Assembly (NCBI GenBank): GCA_035765535.1
Contig: DASTXE010000003.1
Span: 388,516 to 452,515, forward strand
Direction of reading: 5' to 3'
DNA length: 64,000 nucleotides
From: Rickettsiales bacterium
GTDB lineage: Bacteria > Pseudomonadota > Alphaproteobacteria > Rickettsiales > JABCZZ01
The notes under the pieces were generated by a model. That model was not told the DNA's origin and did not search any database. It saw only the letters and a list, made by a program, of their open reading frames with translations. A program made the translations under genes and the position numbers. Shown here piece by piece: positions 1-59,588 of this stretch. Numbering within the stretch: position 1 is the stretch's first letter; each line of letters starts with the position of its first letter.

Positions 1-180
1 AACGATGATTTCCTTGTAGGGATAATCCTGCGTAATGGCGGAACGTATCGCCGCTTCCAGGTAAGTTGTGACGTTATAAACAGGAATAATAACTGCAACA
101 CGCTCATTGGCGGGACGCAGTAGGTTTTTAAGGGCAAACAACGAGAGCATGGCCGTATCCGGATGTATGCGCTTGATCAT
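1..180 (-). CDS. Glycosyltransferase family 2, N-terminal fragment; the gene runs off the left edge
   Basis: My translation from the ATG at 180 gives MIKRIHPDTAMLSLFALKNLLRPANERVAVIIPVYNVTTYLEAAIRSAITQDYPYKEIIV. This is a typical GT2 N-terminus (VxIIPxYN...A..S...Q.Y). It is absent from the ORF track because it is truncated. Confidence 0.6.
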   Translation of the reverse strand, partial: MIKRIHPDTAMLSLFALKNLLRPANERVAVIIPVYNVTTYLEAAIRSAITQDYPYKEIIV

Positions 181-234: not shown

Positions 235-492
235 ATGCCGCTGATAGACTCAAAGAAGGTTTTATGGAAAGAGGTCGACGGCCTCGTGGTCGTGCTGTTG
301 ATTTCCGCAGGCTATTTCATTGAGCTCAACAAAGTCGGCAGCACCATCTGGAAACTACTGGCCGAAGGCAAATCTGTGGAAGAAATCGTAGCGGCCATGA
401 TGAAAATATATGATGTCGCTGCGGAGAAACTGACAGCGGATGTGAAAGCGTTCATTGAGCGCATGGCTGAGCAGGGACTCGTGCAGGCCTAG
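235..492 (+). CDS. PqqD-family small protein (RiPP recognition element-like peptide chaperone fold)
   Basis: 85-89 aa. The pattern ...FIELNKVGSTIWKLLAEGKSVEEIVAAMMKIYDV..EKLTADVKAFIERMAEQGLV matches the PqqD family. GGAAAGG lies 5 nt before the ATG at 235; an alternative TTG start is at 223. Confidence 0.65.
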   Translation: MPLIDSKKVLWKEVDGLVVVLLISAGYFIELNKVGSTIWKLLAEGKSVEEIVAAMMKIYDVAAEKLTADVKAFIERMAEQGLVQA

Positions 493-1301
493 CATTCCTC
501 GCGCAGGCGGAACAAAGCATATTGCAGATATTCACGCCTGTGTAATAGGCCTTCAGCAACAATACGGCGTAGGTTTTGGATGTAATAATCCCGGGACATC
601 AATCCCGGTGCCTGTGTCTTCAGTATAGTGTCTATAATGGCGGTATTGGCTTTCATTAATGCCTGGGAAGAAAGCGTAGTATTGCCTTTGTGGCGGCGAA
701 AACAGGTGAGTATCTCCGGCAGTGCCGCACCCTTGCCATGCTGCAGCAGTTCAGCCCATAAAGCATAATCTTCCGACACGGTAAAATCCTCAGGGAATCC
801 CTTTGTAGCTGCAAGATTTTGTGCTCGTGTCACCACGGAGGAAGTGTGAATGAGAGGAAACATGGCGATATCGTGCAGTGTCATCGCAGGCTTTGCCGGA
901 ATGATAGGCGAGCGTGGCAGTGAATTTCGACTTTCACCGATAAAGGCAAAGCCTGAGCACAGCCATGCAACATCTGGGTGTGCCTGAAGATAAGCAATGC
1001 AGCGTTGCAGCTTCTGCGGTGCAAACAGATCGTCATCATCCAGAAATGCAATAAATTCGCCCCGTGCTTCGCGAATGCCGAAGTTGCGTGCAGCTGCAGC
1101 GCCTGAATGGGCTTGCGTGAAATAGCGTAGCCTGCTGTCATAAAGCATAACAAGCTCCCGCGTATTATCCTGAGAACCGTCATCCACCACGATCACCTCA
1201 AAATCCCGGTAGCTCTGCGCATAAACGGAATCCAGCGCTTGCTGGAGAAAAGCGACGCGGTTGCGGGTAGGGATAATGATACTGACGAGTCCCGTTTTCA
1301 T
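489..1301 (-). CDS. Glycosyltransferase family 2
   Basis: Contains VSIIIPTRNRVAFLQQALDSVYAQSYRDFEVIVVDDGSQDNT and the DxD-type motif FLDDDDLF. I prefer the ATG at 1301; the ORF track starts at a TTG at 1319. Its stop overlaps the stop of the PqqD-like gene. Confidence 0.85.
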   Translation of the reverse strand: MKTGLVSIIIPTRNRVAFLQQALDSVYAQSYRDFEVIVVDDGSQDNTRELVMLYDSRLRYFTQAHSGAAAARNFGIREARGEFIAFLDDDDLFAPQKLQRCIAYLQAHPDVAWLCSGFAFIGESRNSLPRSPIIPAKPAMTLHDIAMFPLIHTSSVVTRAQNLAATKGFPEDFTVSEDYALWAELLQHGKGAALPEILTCFRRHKGNTTLSSQALMKANTAIIDTILKTQAPGLMSRDYYIQNLRRIVAEGLLHRREYLQYALFRLREEC

Positions 1302-1365
1302 ACTGTATTGGGGCGGCAAAGAGAGGGTGTACAGCGCAGGCGCTATCCGATATAGTTAGCGCATA

Positions 1366-2892
1366 ATGAGCATAACGGCAATCATAGTCAGCTATAACAG
1401 TGCGGAAGTTATTGGCGCCGCGCTCAGTAGCGTTTGCGCTCATTCTGAAGTAGAGCGCTGCATCGTGGTGGATAATGCGAGCACGGACGGAACGCTTGAA
1501 CTCATACGCTCTTGCTTCCCCGATGTGCGGATAATCGCAAACCTCGATAATCAGGGCTTTGGCCGTGCTTGTAATCTCGCCCTGCAGCAGGTGAAGACCG
1601 AATACGCGCTTCTGCTGAATCCCGATGCCGTCATGGGAAAGGACAGCATAGAAGCATTGCTTTCGCAGGCGAAATCCCACCCGGAAGCCGCAATTATTGC
1701 GCCGGTACTGCCATGGCAGGGAGGGGATCCAAGCACATCGTCCCTGCGTCAGCCTGTCATTGCCAATGCAGCTCTCCCGGTTACGGGCAGGCGGGAAGGG
1801 GATATCCTGCCAGCATCCGTTATCTCCGGAGCGGTGGCCTTATGGCGCATGGAGCAGATGCAGCGGATAGGTTTCTTCGATCCGGCTTTTTTTCTGTTCT
1901 ATGAAGATGATGATATTTCCATTCGTGTACGCCGTGCAGGGTATGAGCTTTTGCTGGTTGCAGGGCTGGAGGTAGAGCATATTCCCGGACGCTCATGCAA
2001 GGTTACGCCTGCTATTGAAAAACGAAAACTGTGCAGTTCCACCTGGTCTTATTTATACATGCACCGCAAATACCGGGGTATGGTGATTGCTTTATGCAAG
2101 ACGTTCATATTACTGGCGCGTTCAATATGCCTGGCGGCAAGGTATGCGGTAAAGATGAATAAGGGCGCCGCCGGGCAGAAACCAGGGAATGAAGAAGAGG
2201 AATATAACCAGCAATGCGCAGCTTCATTGGCAGTGCTGGAGCAGGAAATGGCTGTGGTGTTGCATACGCAGGATATGCAAGCGCAAGAGGCGATCCGGCA
2301 GTTGGAAGCAGAGTATAGGCAGGCGGAAGAAGGATTCCAGATACGCAAAACGGGGTGGGAAACAGATCATAAGGTAACACTTGCGGCGGCGGCCACGGAA
2401 CACGAACAGGCGCTCGCTGATGCCATGCAAATGCATGAGCAGCAATGGGAGGATAAAACACGGTCGCAGTCTGAGCCGGCTTCGCAAGCCGTATGGGAAC
2501 ATGAAGGGCAGCTGCGTATTATTCAGCAGGCATATGATGAAAAATGGATGGCGCTGACCAGCGGGTTCGATACGCAGTGGCGTTATTCCCAGCAGCAATA
2601 CGATGCGCAGTGGGCTGAAATGGTGCGGCAGCAGGAAGAGCGCAGAAAACTGCTCCAGCAGAAACTGGAAACGCAGCGCGCGACATTGATTCAGCAACAC
2701 GAGAAGAAGCGCTGGACACTCCTGGCGGAGCAGGAAAAGCAGCGCACCATTCTGCAGAAGCAGTGGGATGCAGAGCGTCTGGCATGGCAGCACAGGCAGG
2801 AAGCGCAGCAGGCCTATAGGATCAATGCAGCAAAATTATCCGGTGCATGGCGTTTTCTGTGCAGCCCGGGAAAGGATAAGGGTGAGCAGTGA
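1366..2892 (+). CDS. GT2 glycosyltransferase (rhamnosyltransferase-like) fused to a ~235-aa Q/E/R/W-rich coiled-coil tail
   Basis: The N-terminus has ITAIIVSYNSAEVI...CIVVDNASTDGT, LLLNPDAV and FLFYEDDDISIRVRRAGY. From about residue 274 (nt ~2185) the sequence is low-complexity and helical, with recurring QxW units. Confidence 0.85.
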   Translation: MSITAIIVSYNSAEVIGAALSSVCAHSEVERCIVVDNASTDGTLELIRSCFPDVRIIANLDNQGFGRACNLALQQVKTEYALLLNPDAVMGKDSIEALLSQAKSHPEAAIIAPVLPWQGGDPSTSSLRQPVIANAALPVTGRREGDILPASVISGAVALWRMEQMQRIGFFDPAFFLFYEDDDISIRVRRAGYELLLVAGLEVEHIPGRSCKVTPAIEKRKLCSSTWSYLYMHRKYRGMVIALCKTFILLARSICLAARYAVKMNKGAAGQKPGNEEEEYNQQCAASLAVLEQEMAVVLHTQDMQAQEAIRQLEAEYRQAEEGFQIRKTGWETDHKVTLAAAATEHEQALADAMQMHEQQWEDKTRSQSEPASQAVWEHEGQLRIIQQAYDEKWMALTSGFDTQWRYSQQQYDAQWAEMVRQQEERRKLLQQKLETQRATLIQQHEKKRWTLLAEQEKQRTILQKQWDAERLAWQHRQEAQQAYRINAAKLSGAWRFLCSPGKDKGEQ

Positions 2893-3796
2893 GAGCAGAG
2901 TCGCGGTAGCGGTGATTACCCGGCGCAGACCGGATTCGCTGGCAGTAACGCTGCGCTCCTTGCAGGAGCTGCAAGTACCGCCATCGATAAAAGTACGTTG
3001 TATAGTCGTAGATAATGATGCAGCCCGAAGCGCCTTGCCCGTAATGCAAAATATGCAGCAGCAAACCGCAATGGCGCTGGAATATGCAGTGGAAGAAACT
3101 CCTGGCATTCCGCACGCGCGCAATAAGGCGCTGGAGCTGGCGGCAGACGAGGATTATATTGCCTTCATCGACGATGACGATATAGCCGAGCCGCGCTGGC
3201 TGGCGGCGCTTTATGAGGCTGCGCGAGCCTATAATGCGGATGTCGTCAAAGGACATATTGTCTATACATTCCCCGCCCATAAGGAGCATCTGGCCGCGCT
3301 CGATATTTTTACTGATATCGCCGTGCCGACAGGCATAGCGCTGGACTCGGCATGGAGCAACAACGTTTTGTTCAGCACGAAGATATACAATGAAACCGGC
3401 TTGCGCTTTGATTCTTCTTTCCGGGACACGGGAGGAAGCGATCATCATTTCTTCCGTCGGGCAAAGCAAAGCGGCGCTAAAATTATCATGTGCCGTGAGG
3501 CGGTTGTAAAAACTTCCGTGCCTGTGGAGCGCACCACGTGGCGCTGGCTTATACGCCGTAATATGCGGGTGGGAGCGACACTGACTATCTCGGATAAGAA
3601 AGCACTGGGGAAGAGCGCGGCAATACGTCATGCATGGCGGGCTGCATTGGACTCATTCCGTTATGCGCTGAGATTATTACCGGGGGTGTTCTCCGGTCGC
3701 AACCATATCGTGCATCCTTCCATGGCGGTTTGTTTTGCAATTGGACGCATAGCTGGTATATTTCACCTATCACCGCGCGAATATTACACGCGCTAA
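2882..3796 (+). CDS. Glycosyltransferase family 2
   Basis: Contains VAVAVITRRRPDSLAVTLRSL...CIVVDNDAA and IAFIDDDDIAEPRWL. The in-frame GTG at 2882 overlaps the upstream stop. The track ORF start at 2768 would overlap the previous gene by 125 nt. Confidence 0.8.
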   Translation: MSSESRVAVAVITRRRPDSLAVTLRSLQELQVPPSIKVRCIVVDNDAARSALPVMQNMQQQTAMALEYAVEETPGIPHARNKALELAADEDYIAFIDDDDIAEPRWLAALYEAARAYNADVVKGHIVYTFPAHKEHLAALDIFTDIAVPTGIALDSAWSNNVLFSTKIYNETGLRFDSSFRDTGGSDHHFFRRAKQSGAKIIMCREAVVKTSVPVERTTWRWLIRRNMRVGATLTISDKKALGKSAAIRHAWRAALDSFRYALRLLPGVFSGRNHIVHPSMAVCFAIGRIAGIFHLSPREYYTR

Positions 3797-3810
3797 TTAA
3801 AGGAGCGGCG

Positions 3811-4986
3811 ATGCGCATAGCTTATGTGCTTGGCAGGTTTCCGGTTATGTCCGAAACATTCATCGGCAATGAAATCCGCGCGATGGAAGCGGCCGGGCAT
3901 AATATCGTGCTGTCCGCATTGCATAAGCCTGAAGGAAGTTTTCAGTCGGAAGATAACGCACTCATGCACAGGACGCTCTATTTCGCTCCCCTAGAGCCTC
4001 GTGAAGGGTGGAAACTGATCCGGCGTTACGCGTTGCGCATTCTCCGCCTGCTTCCGTTCATGCTGCGCCAGACGACGGAACCGTACTTCCCATTCCTGGT
4101 ACACGCGGCTCATCTGGCGGATCATATTCGCAAAGAAAACTGTACGCATGTGCATGCGCATTTTGGCTGGGGAGCGGCGACATATGCTATTGCGGCGGCC
4201 CGGCTCGCCGGTCTGCCTGTCACGTTTACCTGTCACGGCTCTGACGTCTATGCGCGTCCTGTCGATTTGCGGGTTAAATGCAAAGCGGCAAGTGCCGTGA
4301 TTGGCGTGGCGCCTTCCATTGTGCAGGATCTGCAGAAGTTGGCTGGCGGAACGCCATGCGAACTAATCTATTGCGGTGTGGATACGGCGCGCTTCAAGCC
4401 GATTGCAGATCCGGCGCAGAATAACGGGCGCTGGCTGTTTTGCGGTAGGTTAATCGATTGCAAGGGAAGCGACGACATACTGGCAGCGTGGAAATTAATG
4501 CATGAAGAAGCACGCCCGCAGCTTGATATCATAGGCGACGGACCTTTGCGGGAGTCACTGGAACGCTACGTGGCAGAAAATAATCTGGAAGAGCATGTGC
4601 ATTTTCTGGGAACGCAACCTGCCGCATGGATTGCGCGCAACGGTCCCTGCTATTTTGCATCCATCACCGCTTTCAGGCAGGGCAGTGACGGCAGCCGGGA
4701 TACTGCGCCGATGGTGCTGAAAGAGGCCATAGCGATGGGATTGCCGGTCGTGACGACAAGGTTTGCCGATATGGCGGAGGTGGTGGACGAGAATTGTGCC
4801 GTGTTGTGTCCTCCTGCAGTGCCGCAGGCTCTGGCGGAAGCTGTTATACAGGTGCAAAAAATGCCGGATGATGCGCGGCAGAAAATGGGAAGGGCAGGAC
4901 GCGTGCGGGCAGAGACACGCTTTAGCGCGCAACAGCAGGCAGCAGCGCTTACACAGTTATTCGAGCGCTGCGCAAGATCGCGATAG
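3811..4986 (+). CDS. Glycosyltransferase family 4 (GT-B fold)
   Basis: AGGAG at 3801-3805 precedes the ATG at 3811. The N-terminus is MRIAYVLGRFPVMSETF and the C-terminus has LKEAIAMGLPVVTTRFADMAEVV, typical of GT4. The track ORF is extended upstream to 3634. Confidence 0.85.
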   Translation: MRIAYVLGRFPVMSETFIGNEIRAMEAAGHNIVLSALHKPEGSFQSEDNALMHRTLYFAPLEPREGWKLIRRYALRILRLLPFMLRQTTEPYFPFLVHAAHLADHIRKENCTHVHAHFGWGAATYAIAAARLAGLPVTFTCHGSDVYARPVDLRVKCKAASAVIGVAPSIVQDLQKLAGGTPCELIYCGVDTARFKPIADPAQNNGRWLFCGRLIDCKGSDDILAAWKLMHEEARPQLDIIGDGPLRESLERYVAENNLEEHVHFLGTQPAAWIARNGPCYFASITAFRQGSDGSRDTAPMVLKEAIAMGLPVVTTRFADMAEVVDENCAVLCPPAVPQALAEAVIQVQKMPDDARQKMGRAGRVRAETRFSAQQQAAALTQLFERCARSR

Positions 4987-5050
4987 AAAAACCCTTTGAT
5001 TCTATTATGCTCAGACCAGAAGCAGGGCGAATTCTGTATTAGGAGTGGTC

Positions 5051-7144
5051 ATGTCAGGTCAGCGTGTAAGCGTGGTGGTCCCGGTTTATAACGTCGTGAC
5101 GTTTCTGCAGGAAGCGATCGATTCCGTATTCGCACAGGATTATCCGGATATAGAGCTGGTAGTGGTGAATGATGGTTCCAATACGATGGCCTCAGAAGAG
5201 ATTGCGCGTATATGCACTGCGGATGCGCGTATTACTCTTATAAATCAGAAAAACACCGGGCAGGCCGTTGCGCGGCGAAATGGTGCGCTGCGTGCCACAG
5301 GCGATTACATTTGGTTTCTGGATGGCGATGATGCGCTGATTCCCGGAGCCGTATCGCATCTCGTGGCAGCATTGGAAGCCAATCCTTCCGCGGTGGCTTC
5401 CTATGGTAAGAAGATATTCCTCGAGAACGGCACCTTTAAATACCGTGAAATATTGCCGCTCGAATCACAGAGCGTTTCGGGCGATATTCTTCCGGCATTG
5501 CTGGAAGGGATACCGCTGCTTTCCAATGGAAGCGTGTGTATACGACGCGAATATGCTTTGAAGATTCGCTTTCCGGAAGGCATTCGGCAGGGGGAAGACT
5601 GGATCACCTGGTGCAGGCTGGCGGCGATGGGAGACATTATATGCGCTGGCCATCGGCCGGTGCTGAGCGTCCGCCAGCATAATGCCAGTACCTCTCGCGG
5701 CGTTTTTACGCAGCCCTCCATTCTTTTTTCCATGCTGGCGGTCGTGTATGGCGATCCGGAATTGATCGCGCGGATCGGCAGGGAAAAATTACAGCACTAT
5801 CGCATGGAACATACACGGCGCATCCATGAGTATTTACGTGTCAGTTATACCGAGCGGAAGCAGTATGTCAGGGCACGCTGGCATGCATGGCTTAGTGCGC
5901 ACTGGCAGCGTAAACGCGCGAAGCAGCAGTTCCCGCCGCGCGATAACAGAATCCGCGTGCTGCACGTGGTTAAATGGTTTTATGCCGGTGGTGCAGAGCG
6001 TCTGATAAGCTCAGTGCTGCAGCATAGCGACCGCGAGCGCTACGACCATGTCATACTTTCTTTGTCGGATCAGAAGGAAAGGCTGGCGGAAATACAGAAC
6101 ACACTGGGTATTCCTTATATCGCAGTCGAAATCACGCGCGATAAATGGAATATCGCAGGCTATCTGCGCTGCCTGTGGCTCATTATACACGCAAAGCCAG
6201 ATGTTATTAAAACATGGCTGCCCCCTTCCAATATCGCGGGAGGGATCGTGGGCTGGCTGCTGCGCATACCGGTGATCTGGGGTATTCATAATGCCCTTCC
6301 GCCGGAAACGAAGGATGCGTTCCGGCAGGTGCGCTTCTCGCGTTTCATGCCCGCGCGCATTATCTGCTGCTCGCAGGCCGTTTACGATACCTGTGTAACG
6401 GCGGGGCATGATGTACGAAAGCTGGAGATCATTACGAACGGCACGGACACGGCAATGTTCTGTCATTCGCCGCAAGGGCGCGCGCGGATACGCAAAGAAC
6501 TTGGCATTGCACCGGATACACTTTTGATCGGTATGGCGGCGGAATTCGTGCCGATCAAACGTCATCCGAATTTTCTTGTAGCAGCGCATATGCTGCTGAA
6601 ATCCTATCCGCAGGCACAGTTCCTCCTGTGCGGTAAAGATACGACAAGGGACAATCTGGCGTTGCGCAAATATATCTGCACGCTCGGCATGGAAGAACAG
6701 GTGTATCTGCTGGGCATCAGGAATGATATGGCGGATATTTATAATGCACTGGATATTCATGTGCTTAATTCGCATTGTGAATCGTTTGGTCTTGCGGTCG
6801 CGGAAGCGGTGTCATGCGAAACATTGTGTGTTGCGACAGAAGTTGGTATTATGAAGCAGTTGCTCCAGGATGTAGGGGAACTGATTCCGGTGTCCGAAGA
6901 CCCTGCCGTACTGGCGGAGGCCTTGAAGCGAATAATAAAATGGACGCCGCAGGAAAAGGCCGAGCGCAGGGCAAAAGGCCGCAAACGGATGATGCGCGAT
7001 TACTCGGTGAGTGAAACGGCCAGGCAGTATGATGCGCTGTATCTGCGCGTTATGCAGCAACGAAAAAATAAACAATCGAGCGAAGAGGGGACTGCCTTCA
7101 AACCGTATAATAAAATTACAGGCAAAACGAGGATGAATGGATGA
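5051..7144 (+). CDS. Two-domain glycosyltransferase (N-terminal GT2 plus C-terminal GT4)
   Basis: The GT2 part has VSVVVPVYNVVTFLQEAIDSVFAQDYPDIELVVVNDGSNT and FLDGDDAL. The GT4 part has RIRVLHVVKWFYAGGAERL and ESFGLAVAEAVSCETLCVATEVG. AGGAG at 5041 precedes the ATG at 5051. Confidence 0.85.
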   Translation: MSGQRVSVVVPVYNVVTFLQEAIDSVFAQDYPDIELVVVNDGSNTMASEEIARICTADARITLINQKNTGQAVARRNGALRATGDYIWFLDGDDALIPGAVSHLVAALEANPSAVASYGKKIFLENGTFKYREILPLESQSVSGDILPALLEGIPLLSNGSVCIRREYALKIRFPEGIRQGEDWITWCRLAAMGDIICAGHRPVLSVRQHNASTSRGVFTQPSILFSMLAVVYGDPELIARIGREKLQHYRMEHTRRIHEYLRVSYTERKQYVRARWHAWLSAHWQRKRAKQQFPPRDNRIRVLHVVKWFYAGGAERLISSVLQHSDRERYDHVILSLSDQKERLAEIQNTLGIPYIAVEITRDKWNIAGYLRCLWLIIHAKPDVIKTWLPPSNIAGGIVGWLLRIPVIWGIHNALPPETKDAFRQVRFSRFMPARIICCSQAVYDTCVTAGHDVRKLEIITNGTDTAMFCHSPQGRARIRKELGIAPDTLLIGMAAEFVPIKRHPNFLVAAHMLLKSYPQAQFLLCGKDTTRDNLALRKYICTLGMEEQVYLLGIRNDMADIYNALDIHVLNSHCESFGLAVAEAVSCETLCVATEVGIMKQLLQDVGELIPVSEDPAVLAEALKRIIKWTPQEKAERRAKGRKRMMRDYSVSETARQYDALYLRVMQQRKNKQSSEEGTAFKPYNKITGKTRMNG

Positions 7145-7851
7145 TACACGGCAGGAACAAACATAGCGGTTTCACACTAATGGAAATGACGGTGGTGATC
7201 GTCATTATCGGCCTGCTGGCGGGAGGAGTGGTCGCCGGACAATCGTTGATTAAGACTTCGGAAATCGCCTCGGTCATGACGGATGTAAACCGGTTCCGCG
7301 CGGCGATCAACGCATTCGATACGCAATATAATGCGCTGCCGGGAGATATGTCTAACGCATCGAGCTACTGGTCTACTGCTAATAATGGCGATGGTAATGG
7401 GAAGATTAATTATAATAGCGGGGCTTGGGGAAGCGAGGAATATTATGTATGGCAGCATCTGCAGCTGGCTAATATCTTGCCCGGCACTTATGGCACTTCT
7501 ACGGCAACCCTGCCGCGTTCGAGATTACGGGATGGCTATTACCGTGTTTCCTATCAGACCGGCGTCTACGGCAAAAGCGCGCATATGATTTCTCTGAACA
7601 AATGGAACTCAGCAACAAACCTTGCCAACACAGCGATATTATCGCCCAAGGATGTCTATGAAATGGATAGGAAGTACGATGACGGTTCAGCCGATACGGG
7701 ACGTATCATGGGCTTTAACGAGCAGGGCGTGCCGGGCTGTGTGACAAACGATTACACGGTAGGCTACGGAAGCTACCTGAACACGAGCGATGCAATCAAA
7801 TGCAAGATATTCTTCCTGCTCGATGAAAGAGACCCCAAGCAATCATCCTAG
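7141..7851 (+). CDS. Prepilin-type N-terminal cleavage/methylation domain protein (GspG-like pseudopilin with ~190-aa C-terminal domain)
   Basis: Starts MIHGRNKHSG/FTLMEMTVVIVIIGLLAGG: a leader ending in G, then F and E at +5, then a hydrophobic helix. The ATG at 7141 overlaps the TGA of the upstream GT gene (ATGA). Confidence 0.85.
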   Translation: MIHGRNKHSGFTLMEMTVVIVIIGLLAGGVVAGQSLIKTSEIASVMTDVNRFRAAINAFDTQYNALPGDMSNASSYWSTANNGDGNGKINYNSGAWGSEEYYVWQHLQLANILPGTYGTSTATLPRSRLRDGYYRVSYQTGVYGKSAHMISLNKWNSATNLANTAILSPKDVYEMDRKYDDGSADTGRIMGFNEQGVPGCVTNDYTVGYGSYLNTSDAIKCKIFFLLDERDPKQSS

Positions 7852-7854
7852 GTT

Positions 7855-8364
7855 TTAAGCAGAGACCGAAGTGATGTTATTGACGTTGTTCTGCACGGTC
7901 TGCTGTAAGGTCTGGTTATAAGCAACCGAAGCTTGGGTCAGCGCGCCGACCAGCCCGTCAATCAGATTCGCTCCGGTATTCGTTCCTGTATGGGAAGAGG
8001 AGGCCGCCTTGACGGCGTTCTGCGCTTCCGTGACCGAGGCGGAAGCAGAGGTGGAATACAGATTCGACAACAATGTTGTCAGCGTATGGTCGGTGGAAGT
8101 GCCGCCGCCTAACAAACTCGATACAGGGTCGAACGTGCCGTTGCCGCCGCCTTGCAGCAGGCTCAGGATTTCCGGTTTAAAGCTATTGCCACTTAATAAT
8201 GATGAGACCGCAGCAGAAGCATTGGCTGCTGCCGTGCCGGAAACGCTCGGCGTTGTGGAGCTGGAATCGGAAGATGAAGACGTGGTAGGTTGCGTCGCAT
8301 TCAGCGCGCCGGTGAGCTGGCCCAGATAAGAATACGGTATGCCTGTTGAGACGGAGTTTACCAT
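7855..8364 (-). CDS. Ser/Thr/Gly/Asn-rich low-complexity protein, function unknown
   Basis: 169 aa starting MVNSVSTGIPYSYLGQL..TTSSSSDSSSTTPSVSG... The ATG at 8364 is preceded by GGGGG. I see no signal peptide. The track start at 8376 is a TTG. Confidence 0.6.
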   Translation of the reverse strand: MVNSVSTGIPYSYLGQLTGALNATQPTTSSSSDSSSTTPSVSGTAAANASAAVSSLLSGNSFKPEILSLLQGGGNGTFDPVSSLLGGGTSTDHTLTTLLSNLYSTSASASVTEAQNAVKAASSSHTGTNTGANLIDGLVGALTQASVAYNQTLQQTVQNNVNNITSVSA

Positions 8365-8389
8365 AAACACCCCCAATAATTACCTGATA

Positions 8390-10037: not shown

Positions 10038-10601
10038 ATGAGCGATAATAACACAATAAAAGAAAACCGCAATCCGCTTGGGCTCGCCCGGCCGATCGTG
10101 CTGGTCGGGCTGATGGGAGCGGGGAAATCCACCATCGGACGCAGGCTGGCTTCTGAACTCGGCCTGCGCTTTGTAGATTCCGACAATGAGATCGCTGAAG
10201 CGGCCGAATGCAGCATTTCCGACATTTTTGCCATTTACGGGGAAACGATTTTTCGTGACCTGGAAAAACGCGTCATTTTGCGCCTGCTGGGCAGCGAGCC
10301 CATTATTCTGGCCACCGGCGGCGGCGCATTCATGAATCCGCAGATCCGCGAGGCGGTGAAAGAACACGGGCTTTCCATCTGGCTGCGCGCCGATATCGAT
10401 GTGCTGCTGGAGCGCGTCTCGCGCCGCAATACGCGCCCGCTACTGGAAAACGGGGATAAACGCGCCATTCTCATGCGCCTGAAAGCGGAGCGCGAGCCGG
10501 TCTATGGCACTGCCGACATGGTCGTGGATAACGACATCGGCGATCACGATAAGGTCGTGGCTAACATTATGGAAATGCTGAAAGGAAAATATCTGGTATG
10601 A
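10038..10601 (+). CDS. aroK: Shikimate kinase
   Basis: Contains the Walker A motif LVGLMGAGKSTIGRRLA and has shikimate-kinase length and order. I prefer the ATG at 10038 (MSDNNTIKENR...). Its stop overlaps the aroB start (ATGA at 10598). Confidence 0.92.
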   Translation: MSDNNTIKENRNPLGLARPIVLVGLMGAGKSTIGRRLASELGLRFVDSDNEIAEAAECSISDIFAIYGETIFRDLEKRVILRLLGSEPIILATGGGAFMNPQIREAVKEHGLSIWLRADIDVLLERVSRRNTRPLLENGDKRAILMRLKAEREPVYGTADMVVDNDIGDHDKVVANIMEMLKGKYLV

Positions 10602-58610: not shown

Positions 58611-59462
58611 TTACTGCAGTCTCATAGAGAGTGCACAGTTTATACCTGTTCCCTGATTGATACTGATAGAATAGGTGTTTGTAGTCCAGTTATAGCATGT
58701 TGTAGTGCTATCACTTGCAGCATCCGGAGAATGTTGAACCCATTCTCCCGTTAGATAACCTGTTCTCACGTTTCCTTTAAGAGGGAAGCCATCGTCTGTT
58801 TTTTGATCAATTCGGTAGGCTTGCGTTACCGACATTCCAGGATTGGTGAGCATACTGCCGTTTGTCGGTACGGATGTAACCGCGGAAATACCAAACCAAT
58901 TGTTATTATCGATCCCGTTATCAACAGTATTACTATCGTATACATAAACGAAGTTACCATTGCCTATCTTAGCGACAGGTAAAAAATTACCGATATAATA
59001 AGTTCCAGCGGTAAGAGATAACGCAGTGCTCGGGGCGCCGCACTGAACAGTAAAAATGCCAGCAGAGTTATTGGGAGATACGTCTCCAATGAGGCCTGCC
59101 ATATTTAAATCAGACCAGAATAACACAGCTTCACCTTGCTCTGTCGTATAAACAGGACCGCCGGACCAATACCCGTCAATGATTCCATTTCCATCGCGTT
59201 GGCCCAAACTAGCATTGCAACTGGTGGTAACAAATCCGAATTGATTTGCAAGAGTATTGGATAAATCCCCGGGCAATCCCCCATACTTATTTTGAAATGC
59301 ATGGACAGCGGTATTGTATTTCTCAATCTGGCTTATCTGCGCACGAATTGCAGCAGTATTGATTAAATCCTGTCCTGCCAGTATTCCTCCCACAATCAGT
59401 CCTATAATAACCAGAACAATAGAAACTTCGATGAGAGTGAAGCCGGAGTTGCGATATTGCAT
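58611..59462 (-). CDS. Prepilin-type N-terminal cleavage/methylation domain protein (second pseudopilin paralogue)
   Basis: Starts MQYRNSG/FTLIEVSIVLVIIGLIVGGILAGQDLI...AVHAFQNKYGGLPGD, parallel to the 7141-7851 protein (…AINAFDTQYNALPGD). The start is the ATG at 59462. Confidence 0.85.
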   Translation of the reverse strand: MQYRNSGFTLIEVSIVLVIIGLIVGGILAGQDLINTAAIRAQISQIEKYNTAVHAFQNKYGGLPGDLSNTLANQFGFVTTSCNASLGQRDGNGIIDGYWSGGPVYTTEQGEAVLFWSDLNMAGLIGDVSPNNSAGIFTVQCGAPSTALSLTAGTYYIGNFLPVAKIGNGNFVYVYDSNTVDNGIDNNNWFGISAVTSVPTNGSMLTNPGMSVTQAYRIDQKTDDGFPLKGNVRTGYLTGEWVQHSPDAASDSTTTCYNWTTNTYSISINQGTGINCALSMRLQ

Positions 59463-59588
59463 AATAACCAAGCGAAAATATCAATTATTTGATAGTCTTA
59501 CTATAAATTCAGACAGTTTATTATACAATATAATTAACCGGTATGGTACAACCACCAGTGTAATATACTGGATACCGTCGCTCCATTA

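What the first reader, a model, noticed from the sequence alone, without database searches (positions are those of the whole stretch)
5051..7851. Bifunctional GT2-GT4 enzyme translationally coupled (ATGA) to a pseudopilin gene
The same-strand GT genes from 1366 to 7144 (four genes, five GT domains) end in a 697-aa two-domain glycosyltransferase. Its TGA overlaps the ATG of a prepilin-type protein at 7141. Such coupling implies co-expression and stoichiometric linkage between a sugar-polymerising enzyme and a pilin-like protein. Pilin genes adjacent to dedicated glycosyltransferases are known in Pseudomonas (TfpO, TfpW) and Neisseria. A pseudopilin as the terminal gene of a multi-GT operon is not a standard arrangement. 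The pilin-like protein could be the glycosylation target or an export or anchoring component.
Basis: partly seen in the sequence, partly recalled or inferred. Interest (0 to 1): 0.6.

Follow-up and report, generated by a model that had tools for sequence, protein, structure and literature searches.

The report
Pilin gene in mobile glycosyltransferase island
The pilin-like gene that overlaps the last sugar-transferase gene is real and is a fixed member of a rare, undescribed ten-gene island that travels between uncultured alphaproteobacteria; the four-base overlap itself is ordinary and is not conserved.

Summary
Observation confirmed. A 697-aa GT2-GT4 protein (5051-7144) ends in ATGA on the start of a 236-aa prepilin-type protein (7141-7851). 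That protein has a G|FTLME signal, a confident pilin fold and a C-terminal Cys pair.

The overlap is ordinary: about 10% of same-strand junctions in this genome overlap by 4 nt. It is not conserved: the 84%-identical relative has a 12-nt gap, and other loci have 36-72-nt gaps or convergent genes.

The linkage is strong. The pilin is the last gene of a 10.1-kb block: JmjC, a 91-aa protein with an invariant YExP...AxA tail, PqqD/RRE, seven GT domains, and the pilin. Two same-genus genomes lack the whole block at the same site. No ortholog of the GT2-GT4 protein was found in 460 other sampled genomes of the class.

The block recurs, with shuffled gene order, in nine other metagenomic or MAG loci, always with the pilin ortholog. 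None of the 32 other pilin paralogs lies within 14 kb of a GT gene.

The island has no oligosaccharyltransferase, initiating transferase, flippase or exporter.

Best reading (inferred): the pilin-like protein is the island's own type-IV-filament subunit and handles its glycan outside the cytoplasm. The RRE docks the small protein to the GTs. The closest analogue is the cyanobacterial hps locus. One first-stage note of this scan had described this island in another genome.

The parts
1..180 (-). 5' part of a 318-aa GT2 gene (G000 C3:387739-388695); the rest lies upstream of the window
   Evidence: Pfam PF00535, 92 bits. Orthologs at 38-50% identity in L001, L003, L015, L035, L037 and L042.
235..492 (+). 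PqqD-family RiPP-recognition-element protein (85 aa; 89 aa from the TTG at 223)
   Evidence: PF05402, 66.8 bits against a cut-off of 23.4. Best NCBIfam match is the lasso PqqD chaperone, below its cut-off. It is the only PqqD in the genome. Orthologs occur in every complete island locus.
489..1319 (-). GT2 glycosyltransferase, 276 aa, convergent with PqqD with overlapping stop codons
   Evidence: PF00535, 124.8 bits. Orthologs at 51-60% identity.
1366..2892 (+). GT2 glycosyltransferase, 508 aa, with one hydrophobic segment (238-258) and a Q/E/R/W-rich helical tail; first gene of the + strand run
   Evidence: PF00535 at residues 5-126. Hydropathy and tail sequence. A promoter-like site lies at 1328-1356.
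2768..3796 (+). GT2 glycosyltransferase; the ORF is 342 aa, but the true start is probably later (about 2825-2882), because orthologs are 299-307 aa
   Evidence: PF00535. Orthologs at 45-57% identity, fused to neighbouring GT genes in L015, L036 and L054.
3811..4986 (+). GT4 glycosyltransferase; the ORF opens at 3634, and the likely start is MRIAYVLGRFP at 3811, giving about 391 aa
   Evidence: PF13439 plus PF00534. N-terminus. Orthologs are 385-398 aa at 55-60% identity.
5051..7144 (+). Two-domain GT2-GT4 glycosyltransferase, 697 aa
   Evidence: Pfam domains. Orthologs at 49-55% identity over the full length in seven other loci. In L042 it is split into separate GT2 and GT4 genes.
7141..7144 (+). 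ATGA start/stop overlap between the GT2-GT4 gene and the pilin gene
   Evidence: Sequence. Not conserved in other loci.
7141..7851 (+). Prepilin-type (type IV pilin-like) protein, 236 aa; last gene of the island
   Evidence: N_methyl and TIGR02532 above their cut-offs. AlphaFold2 model with pLDDT 83.9 and pTM 0.75: N-terminal helix 13-63 plus an alpha/beta head. The only fold matches with E below 0.01 are to C. difficile PilA1 (three chains, E 1e-3 to 3.5e-3). Cys200 and Cys221 are invariant. The ortholog clade has 98/81 support.

Best explanation
The 236-aa protein is a real type-IV-pilin-like subunit. It is the dedicated, co-inherited structural gene of a rare accessory glycosylation island of 10.1 kb (G000 C3:386268-396366). 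In this genome it is expressed as the last cistron of the five-gene + strand GT run 1366-7851.

Proposed mechanism; every step is inferred unless marked as shown:
1. The seven soluble GT domains assemble a glycan in the cytoplasm.
2. The PqqD-type recognition element docks the island's 91-aa protein to the GTs, as acceptor or membrane scaffold. That protein has an N-terminal hydrophobic helix and a disordered tail with an invariant YExP...AxA motif and a Ser/Thr near its C-terminus.
3. The pilin-like protein is processed by the host prepilin peptidase. It is inserted into one of the host's T2SS/T4P-type machines, which are encoded elsewhere (shown). There it works outside the cytoplasm with the island's glycan: it exports or presents it, as proposed for the pseudopilins of the cyanobacterial hps polysaccharide locus. 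It is not a direct substrate of the neighbouring GT2-GT4 enzyme.

The ATGA overlap only reflects operon compaction in this one genome.
For: **Island membership (shown)**
- Same-genus genomes G002 and G003 keep sucD, the 691-aa kinase-like gene, the S/T-rich ORF, the 473-aa protein, aroK and aroB. They lack the whole JmjC-to-pilin block between two convergent genes.
- In 60 relatives neither the PqqD (E <= 1e-5) nor a GT2-GT4 ortholog (E <= 1e-60) was found, and the best pilin match was only 42% identical (E 1.8e-42). In 400 further genomes of the class no GT2-GT4 ortholog was found at E <= 1e-100.

**Conserved neighbourhood**
- Orthologs at 40-60% identity of the pilin, GT2-GT4, GT4, the GT2 genes, PqqD and the small protein sit together in L001/2, L003, L015, L035, L036, L037, L042, L043 and L054, with shuffled order and varying GT fusions.
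- L043 was found by searching with the GT and L054 by searching with the small protein, so those two finds do not depend on the pilin.

**Specificity**
- The other 32 pilin paralogs in this genome lie at least 14 kb from any GT-like ORF.
- The outgroup pilins P0020 and P0038 have no GT neighbours.
- P0001-P0017 form a clade with 98/81 support.

**Pilin nature**.

**Host machinery**: GspE-, PilT- and CpaF-type ATPases, three secretins, GspF/PilC and two A24 peptidases.

**RRE partner**
- Tyr, Glu, Pro and Ala-x-Ala are invariant in the small protein. This fits the [Y/W]xxPx[L/V/I/F/A] motif bound by discrete lasso-type RREs (PMC13381572).
- The tail of the small protein is predicted to be disordered.

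**What the island lacks**: no Wzy_C, Bac_transf or ABC-2 gene lies in the island. The GTs have no membrane domain apart from one hydrophobic segment.

**Precedent**: the hps locus has five GTs and four pseudopilins and is proposed to push slime through a secretin (PMC12475490).
Against:
- An export or presentation role for the pilin is only an analogy. The hps model is itself described as speculation in its source paper.
- One clade member (P0011, L004/5) has no GT gene within 10 kb.
- The island carries a single pilin and no ATPase, platform protein or secretin, so it depends wholly on host machines that I could not link to it.
- The small protein might be a scaffold or regulator rather than an acceptor.
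- Ser/Thr within the last five residues of all its homologs could be chance, roughly 1 in 100 by a rough estimate of my own.
- A cytoplasmic OGT-type enzyme is needed for pilin glycosylation in Synechococcus (Suban et al. 2022, PMC9306852; abstract seen). Soluble GTs therefore do not exclude pilin modification.
Confidence: 0.45

Rival explanations
1. The pilin-like protein is the acceptor of the island's glycan. The GTs would build an oligosaccharide on a lipid carrier, started and flipped by host enzymes. A host Wzy_C-type O-oligosaccharyltransferase would then transfer it to the pilin in the periplasm, as in the PglL or TfpO systems. Alternatively, a soluble GT modifies the pilin directly.
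For: - Gene linkage is conserved.
- The genome has three Wzy_C proteins above the Pfam cut-off and three Bac_transf initiating transferases elsewhere. One Wzy_C gene (C2:113937) lies about 6 kb from a CpaF-type ATPase and secretin locus.
- P0001 and P0002 end in Ser-Ser. This recalls the C-terminal Ser glycosylation of P. aeruginosa 1244 pilin (my own knowledge).
- A partly conserved N-A-S/T follows the LPGD motif.
Against: - None of the ten island loci has an oligosaccharyltransferase, initiating transferase or flippase.
- The C-terminal Ser-Ser is not conserved in the clade.
- The only cytoplasmic part of a prepilin is its short leader, which has no conserved Ser/Thr in the clade.
- This reading does not explain the conserved RRE and YExP small protein.
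Confidence: 0.3
2. One reading: the ATGA overlap enforces translational coupling and a fixed ratio between the GT2-GT4 enzyme and the pilin, and this coupling matters for function.
For: - The overlap exists, with a Shine-Dalgarno-like AGGA inside the GT gene's 3' end.
- No + strand promoter-like or terminator-like site was found near the junction.
Against: - The overlap is absent in every other locus. The 84%-identical relative has a 12-nt gap. L003, L042 and L037 have gaps of 36, 50 and 72 nt. L001/2, L015, L035, L036, L043 and L054 have the pilin convergent with its neighbour.
- About 10% of same-strand junctions in this genome overlap by 4 nt.
- The last ~30 residues of the GT are not conserved, so the stop codon's position appears to have drifted.
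Confidence: 0.08
3. There is no functional link. This is an ordinary LPS or exopolysaccharide GT cluster, and one copy of a large, scattered prepilin family happens to lie at its end.
For: - The family is very large: 33 copies in this genome and 4,256 representative proteins at E <= 1e-30.
- Its members lie beside many unrelated genes.
- One clade member has no GT neighbour.
Against: - Ten independent loci keep the same ortholog clade beside the same GT set despite rearrangements.
- The pilin is gained or lost together with the block.
- No other paralog is near a GT gene.
Confidence: 0.07

Closest known systems
[quoted passage not shown]
   Same: One locus combines several GT2/GT4-type glycosyltransferases with prepilin-type (pseudopilin) genes. 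It has no classical Wzx/Wzy or ABC exporter. The pseudopilins are proposed to act with a T4P/T2SS machine and secretin encoded elsewhere to secrete the polysaccharide (PMC12475490, PMC13759059).
   Different: The hps locus has four pseudopilins plus the giant HpsA; this island has one pilin. The hps locus has no PqqD/RRE and no YExP small protein. The GTs here score far below the NCBIfam Hps cut-offs (HpsE 57 bits against 300). The host is an alphaproteobacterium and the block is a rare mobile island, not a conserved core locus.
Pilin glycosylation islands (P. aeruginosa pilA-tfpO/pilO, tfpW-tfpX; Neisseria pglL with the pgl genes)
   Same: A pilin gene is genetically tied to glycosylation genes.
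   Different: Those systems are defined by a membrane oligosaccharyltransferase (Wzy_C-type TfpO/PglL) or a GT-C enzyme (TfpW) next to or acting on the pilin. This island has none: the Wzy_C hits are all elsewhere in the genome. It carries seven soluble GT-A/GT-B domains instead.
RiPP pathways with a discrete PqqD-type RRE (lasso peptides; linear polyphosphorylated peptides, LPP)
   Same: A stand-alone PqqD/RRE protein whose best NCBIfam match is the lasso chaperone. It comes with a small co-encoded protein carrying an invariant Y-x-x-P-x-hydrophobic motif, which is the recognition motif of lasso and LPP RREs (PMC13381572).
   Different: There is no lasso cyclase, leader protease, HprK-type kinase or dedicated exporter. 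The candidate precursor is 72-115 aa with an N-terminal hydrophobic helix. In two loci only one residue follows the AxA motif. The tailoring enzymes are glycosyltransferases, with JmjC in two loci.
T2SS major pseudopilin GspG and type IV pilins (structurally, C. difficile PilA1)
   Same: Class III signal peptide, Glu at +5, a long N-terminal helix with an alpha/beta head, and a C-terminal disulfide pair. Fold match to PilA1 with probability 1.0.
   Different: The GspG model matches only the N-terminal helix (31.9 bits against a cut-off of 88.85). The head domain is about 100 residues larger. It carries clade-specific motifs (LPGD, NGNGNGxIDY, DDGxADxG, PGCVTNDYT) with no Pfam family.

Membership tests
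Type IV pilin-like (prepilin-type) superfamily | N-terminal class III signal: Gly at -1, Phe/Met at +1, Glu at +5, then a hydrophobic helix | tested here: met
   MIHGRNKHSG|FTLMEMTVVIVIIGLLAGG. PF07963 scores 31.2 bits (cut-off 21.2) and TIGR02532 scores 26.3 bits (cut-off 16.3).
Type IV pilin-like (prepilin-type) superfamily | Pilin fold: long N-terminal helix packed on a beta-sheet head, with a C-terminal disulfide | tested here: met
   AlphaFold2 model with pLDDT 83.9: helix 13-63 and strands 132-226. The only Foldseek matches with E below 0.01 are to C. difficile PilA1. Cys200 and Cys221 are invariant in 17 orthologs.
Type IV pilin-like (prepilin-type) superfamily | Cleavage and N-methylation by a prepilin peptidase, and assembly into a filament | not testable with these tools
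   The genome encodes A24 peptidases, ATPases, platform proteins and secretins. Processing and assembly were not observed.
T2SS major pseudopilin GspG | Full-length match to the GspG model (TIGR01710 / PF08334) and a location in a gsp operon | tested here: not met
   TIGR01710 scores 31.9 bits against a cut-off of 88.85, over residues 9-68 only. There is no PF08334 hit. No gsp genes lie in the island.
Pilin O-glycosylation island (TfpO/PilO, PglL, TfpW) | A Wzy_C-type O-oligosaccharyltransferase or a GT-C arabinosyltransferase encoded next to the pilin gene | tested here: not met
   The Wzy_C hits are at C6:100512, C3:332842, C2:113937 and C6:564040 only. All island ORFs are accounted for as GT2, GT4, PqqD, JmjC, small protein or pilin.
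Pilin O-glycosylation island (TfpO/PilO, PglL, TfpW) | The pilin carries a covalently attached glycan | not testable with these tools
   Needs mass spectrometry.
Cyanobacterial hps locus | Equivalog-level matches to the Hps glycosyltransferases (HpsE, N, O) and the Hps pseudopilins/HpsA | tested here: not met
   HpsE 57 bits against 300, HpsN 42 against 425, HpsO 24 against 575. The pilin hits no Hps model.
Cyanobacterial hps locus | Architecture: several GTs plus pseudopilin gene(s) in one locus without a classical exporter | tested here: met
   The description of hps comes from PMC12475490.
Lasso-peptide / LPP-type RiPP cluster | A discrete PqqD-type RRE plus a co-encoded peptide with the YxxPx[LVIFA] motif | tested here: met
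   PF05402 scores 66.8 bits. Y66, E67 and P69 are invariant and are followed by x-F/L/I in eight homologs. The motif definition is from PMC13381572. Binding itself was not tested.
Lasso-peptide / LPP-type RiPP cluster | Class-defining enzymes: lasso cyclase plus leader protease, or HprK-like kinase plus signal-peptidase-like protease | tested here: not met
   No such domains occur in the island. Every island protein has been assigned.

The most novel reading that the evidence does not exclude
The island is an undescribed kind of leader-guided, protein-primed glycan system. The PqqD element binds the YExP motif of the small helix-anchored protein. The seven GT domains build a long glycan on the Ser/Thr at its extreme C-terminus, with no lipid carrier. 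The island's own pilin-like subunit then recruits a host type IV filament or T2SS machine to carry this glycoprotein across the envelope or display it. That would join RiPP-style substrate recognition, polysaccharide-scale glycosylation and pilus-type export in one mobile cassette.
Probability: 0.2. Interest if true: 0.85.

Novelty: new variant of a known kind. Interest (0 to 1): 0.6.

Why it matters
Pilin genes tied to sugar enzymes are known in two forms: pilin glycosylation by membrane oligosaccharyltransferases, and the still unexplained cyanobacterial hps slime locus. This island is a third, compact form. It is about 10 kb, self-contained and horizontally mobile, and it adds a peptide-recognition element and a conserved small acceptor-like protein.

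Because it is small and has clear boundaries, it could be moved whole into a laboratory alphaproteobacterium. That would allow a direct test of a long-standing question: can type-IV-filament subunits take part in exporting or presenting glycans rather than proteins? It would also test whether RRE domains guide glycosyltransferases outside classical natural-product pathways.

The result also gives one member of a very large family of prepilin-type proteins (thousands of members, none characterised as far as I could find) a defined genetic context for the first time.

Tried and rejected
- **Genome-collection scan with the 17-sequence pilin alignment.** It failed because no stretch was conserved enough. 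A narrower alignment gave one locus only.
- **Metagenome scan with the GT2-GT4 alignment.** It gave one true ortholog locus (L043) and ten partial GT relatives without the island.
- **Plasmid collection.** Only distant family members at 30-32% identity, and no island.
- **Idea: the S/T-rich ORF (7855-8376) is the island's glycosylation target.** Rejected. Same-genus genomes that lack the island still have it.
- **Idea: the 691-aa kinase-like gene is a WbdD-like terminator belonging to the island.** Rejected for the same reason.
- **Idea: PqqD binds the pilin.** The pilin has Y-x-x-x-P (YNALP), not Y-x-x-P, while the small protein has the exact motif. I therefore judged it less likely; it is untested.
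- **Idea: the small protein is cleaved by the prepilin peptidase.** It has no G|F-x-x-x-E motif.
- **Idea: this is a lasso peptide.** No cyclase or protease is present.
- **Base composition.** The island is not distinct: GC 0.49-0.57 against a genome value of 0.51-0.53.
- **Literature.** Searches found no description of a PqqD-GT-pilin island.
Full report
**1. The observation**

The + strand carries ORFs at 1366-2892, 2768-3796, 3634-4986, 5045/5051-7144 and 7141-7851. Pfam assigns the domains as follows:
- GT2 to the first two ORFs.
- GT4/GT1 to the third.
- GT2 (residues 9-137) plus Glyco_transf_4 (315-470) plus Glycos_transf_1 (480-642) to the fourth.

At 7141-7144 the sequence is ATGA, and an AGGA lies 7 nt before the ATG.

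The 236-aa product begins MIHGRNKHSG|FTLMEM. It passes the cut-offs of PF07963 and TIGR02532.

The overlap itself is not remarkable. A crude gene call on the whole genome gives 138 four-base overlaps among 1424 same-strand junctions. aroK/aroB, 3 kb downstream, overlap in the same way.

**2. What the 236-aa protein is**

An AlphaFold2 model built on 17 orthologs is confident: pLDDT 83.9, pTM 0.75, with helix 13-63 followed by a beta-rich head. Its only structural matches with E below 0.01 are to the type IV pilin PilA1 of C. difficile. Two cysteines near the C-terminus are invariant, so the head folds outside the cytoplasm.

It is not a GspG. That model matches only the N-terminal helix, at 31.9 bits against a cut-off of 88.85.

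The genome is 2.6 Mb in six contigs, with 100% of marker genes present. It holds 33 members of this family with almost identical N-terminal helices. The wider family has 4,256 representative proteins at E <= 1e-30.

The genome also encodes the machinery such proteins need:
- GspE-, PilT- and CpaF-type ATPases.
- Three secretins.
- GspF/PilC and TadB/C-like platform proteins.
- Two A24 peptidases.

**3. The locus is a ten-gene island that extends beyond the window**

Upstream of the window and on the other strand lie four more parts:
- A JmjC/Cupin_8 protein of 342 aa.
- A 91-aa ORF found here (C3:387467-387742); it is shorter than the ORF-listing cut-offs I used, so it appeared in no ORF list.
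- A 318-aa GT2.
- A PqqD protein (window 235-492), which is the only one in the genome, and a 276-aa GT2 (489-1319).

In all there are seven GT domains.

Two same-genus genomes keep the flanking genes in order: sucD, a flavodoxin-like gene in G003 (its frame is not called in the G002 locus), a 691-aa kinase-like gene, the S/T-rich ORF, a 473-aa secreted protein, aroK and aroB. Both lack everything from JmjC to the pilin. In G002 the two convergent flanking genes are 114 nt apart. The pilin gene is therefore gained or lost together with the GT genes.

The kinase-like gene, the S/T-rich ORF (7855-8376) and the 473-aa protein are genus core genes, not parts of the island.

In 60 relatives of the same order neither the PqqD nor a GT2-GT4 ortholog was found, and the best pilin match was only 42% identical (E 1.8e-42). 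In 400 further genomes sampled across the class no GT2-GT4 ortholog was found at E <= 1e-100.

**4. The linkage elsewhere**

The pilin's close homologs (44-84% identity; 16 proteins among 5.8 billion) form a clade with 98/81 support. It is separate from the lineage-specific expansion of the other paralogs.

Wherever enough context exists, the clade member sits in or at the edge of an orthologous gene set at 40-60% identity. The position differs from locus to locus:

| Locus | Position of the pilin gene |
|---|---|
| L003 | After GT2-GT4, 36-nt gap |
| L042 | After a GT2, 50-nt gap; here GT2-GT4 is split into two genes |
| L037 | After a GT2, 72-nt gap |
| L015, L036, L043, L054 | Convergent with GT2-GT4 |
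| L001/2 | Convergent with a GT2 |
| L035 | Convergent with PqqD |
| Contig of the 84%-identical relative | 12-nt gap after the upstream gene |

L043 was found by searching with the GT and L054 by searching with the small protein. Those two finds therefore do not depend on the pilin.

One clade member (L004/5) has no GT gene within 10 kb. It is nested inside the clade as sister to the L003 pilin, so this looks like a secondary loss of linkage.

Controls:
- The 32 other paralogs in this genome are at least 14 kb from any GT-like ORF.
- Two outgroup pilins have unrelated neighbours.

The GT genes are fused in different combinations in different loci, which is what one expects of enzymes that work together. 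Two islands abut tRNA genes: tRNA-Lys in L015 and tRNA-Ser in L001.

**5. The second conserved non-enzyme**

The 91-aa protein has homologs in the window's genome, L001/2, L003, L015, L035 (two copies), L037, L042 and L054. A weaker relative occurs in L055. Only 13 such proteins exist in the 5.8-billion-protein collection.

It has a basic N-terminus and a hydrophobic helix. Its tail has invariant Tyr-Glu-x-Pro followed by x-Phe/Leu/Ile, and about 13 residues later an invariant Ala-x-Ala. The model gives a helix at 7-46 and a disordered tail, at low confidence (pLDDT 57).

Y-x-x-P-x-hydrophobic is the motif that discrete lasso-type and LPP-type RREs bind (PMC13381572). The island's PqqD is closest to the lasso chaperones. 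I therefore infer that PqqD docks this protein, not the pilin.

All homologs have a Ser or Thr within their last five residues; two of them end ...AFAS. This suggests an acceptor site but could be chance.

**6. Mechanism**

*Shown:*
- The operon-like packing.
- Membership of the pilin in the island.
- The pilin fold.
- Host filament machinery elsewhere in the genome.
- No oligosaccharyltransferase, initiating transferase, flippase or ABC-2 exporter in the island.
- GTs that are soluble apart from one hydrophobic segment.

*Inferred:*
- The GTs build a glycan in the cytoplasm.
- The RRE brings the small protein to them as acceptor or membrane scaffold.
- The pilin-like protein works outside the cytoplasm with that glycan through a host T2SS/T4P-type machine, as is proposed for the pseudopilins of the hps locus (PMC12475490).

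The main rival is that the pilin is itself the acceptor, through a host Wzy_C enzyme. I cannot exclude this. I rate it lower for two reasons: no island locus carries such an enzyme, and it leaves the RRE and the small protein unexplained.

**7. Comparison with known systems and novelty**

The arrangement resembles the hps locus in architecture, but not at the family level: the Hps models score far below their cut-offs. It fails the defining test of pilin O-glycosylation islands, because no oligosaccharyltransferase is present. It shares only the RRE and its motif with lasso and LPP pathways.

I found no paper describing it. A first-stage note of this scan (e1-3608403) had described the same kind of island next to tRNA-Lys in another genome. 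That matches L015, which I examined.

I class it as a new variant of a known kind, namely pilin-linked glycosylation or polysaccharide loci. There is a minority chance that it is a new type of leader-guided, protein-primed glycan system.

**8. Limits**
- No transcript or protein data were available.
- The taxonomy is known only as 'Alphaproteobacteria' from one named MAG.

Noticed in passing
L014:12468-12743 (+) = G000 C3:387467-387742, about 0.8 kb upstream of the window start: A conserved 91-aa ORF, shorter than the ORF-listing cut-offs I used: basic N-terminus, hydrophobic helix, and a disordered tail with invariant YExP and AxA motifs and a C-terminal Thr. Homologs occur in nearly every island locus, and only 13 such proteins exist in 5.8 billion. 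It is the likely partner of the PqqD element.
   Followed up: yes
whole genome G000 (for example window 58611-59471 on the - strand; C4:8816-10575; C3:118366-120143): There are 33 prepilin-type paralogs of about 255-330 aa in a 2.6-Mb genome, with nearly identical N-terminal helices (GFTLIELSIVLVIIGLIVGGILTG). Most form a lineage-specific expansion. The wider family has thousands of members, and I found no functional annotation for any of them.
   Followed up: partly
window 7855-8376 (-): A Ser/Thr/Gly/Asn-rich ORF of 173 aa without a leader, convergent with the pilin gene and 3 nt from it. It is conserved at 51-57% identity in same-genus genomes that lack the island. It is therefore a genus core gene, not the island's substrate.
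   Followed up: partly
G000 C3:384202-386277 (+), upstream of the window: A 691-aa protein with only a faint protein-kinase-like match (Pkinase E 4e-7, below the cut-off). It is conserved at 55-57% identity in same-genus genomes and forms the left border of the island's insertion site.
   Followed up: partly
L015, L036, L042, L043, L054: The island's GT genes are fused or split differently from locus to locus: GT2-GT4 is split in L042; GT2+GT4 fusions of 694 aa occur in L015; GT2+GT2 fusions of 642-666 aa occur in L036 and L054; L043 has a 1059-aa frame. This pattern suggests that the enzymes act as one complex.
   Followed up: partly
L015:8524-8599; L001:18291-18380 and 1-831: Island copies abut tRNA-Lys (L015) and tRNA-Ser (L001). 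L001/2 also has a phage-type integrase and tRNA-Glu about 9 kb away. This is consistent with horizontal mobility, but no integrase lies next to the island in the window's genome.
   Followed up: partly
window 1366-2892, residues about 260-508 of the product: The first GT2 of the + strand run has one hydrophobic segment (238-258) and then a tail of about 240 residues rich in Q, E, R and W that looks like a coiled coil. Orthologs vary in the length of this tail (352-459 aa in total).
   Followed up: no
L004:5878-9884 and L004:7755-8603: In the one clade member without GT neighbours, the pilin gene follows two proteins with no family match (626 and 360 aa) and a GH114 glycoside hydrolase, with an epimerase nearby. 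This may be a different glycan context.
   Followed up: no
window 10598-10601: aroK and aroB also overlap by ATGA, which shows how common this junction is in the genome.
   Followed up: yes
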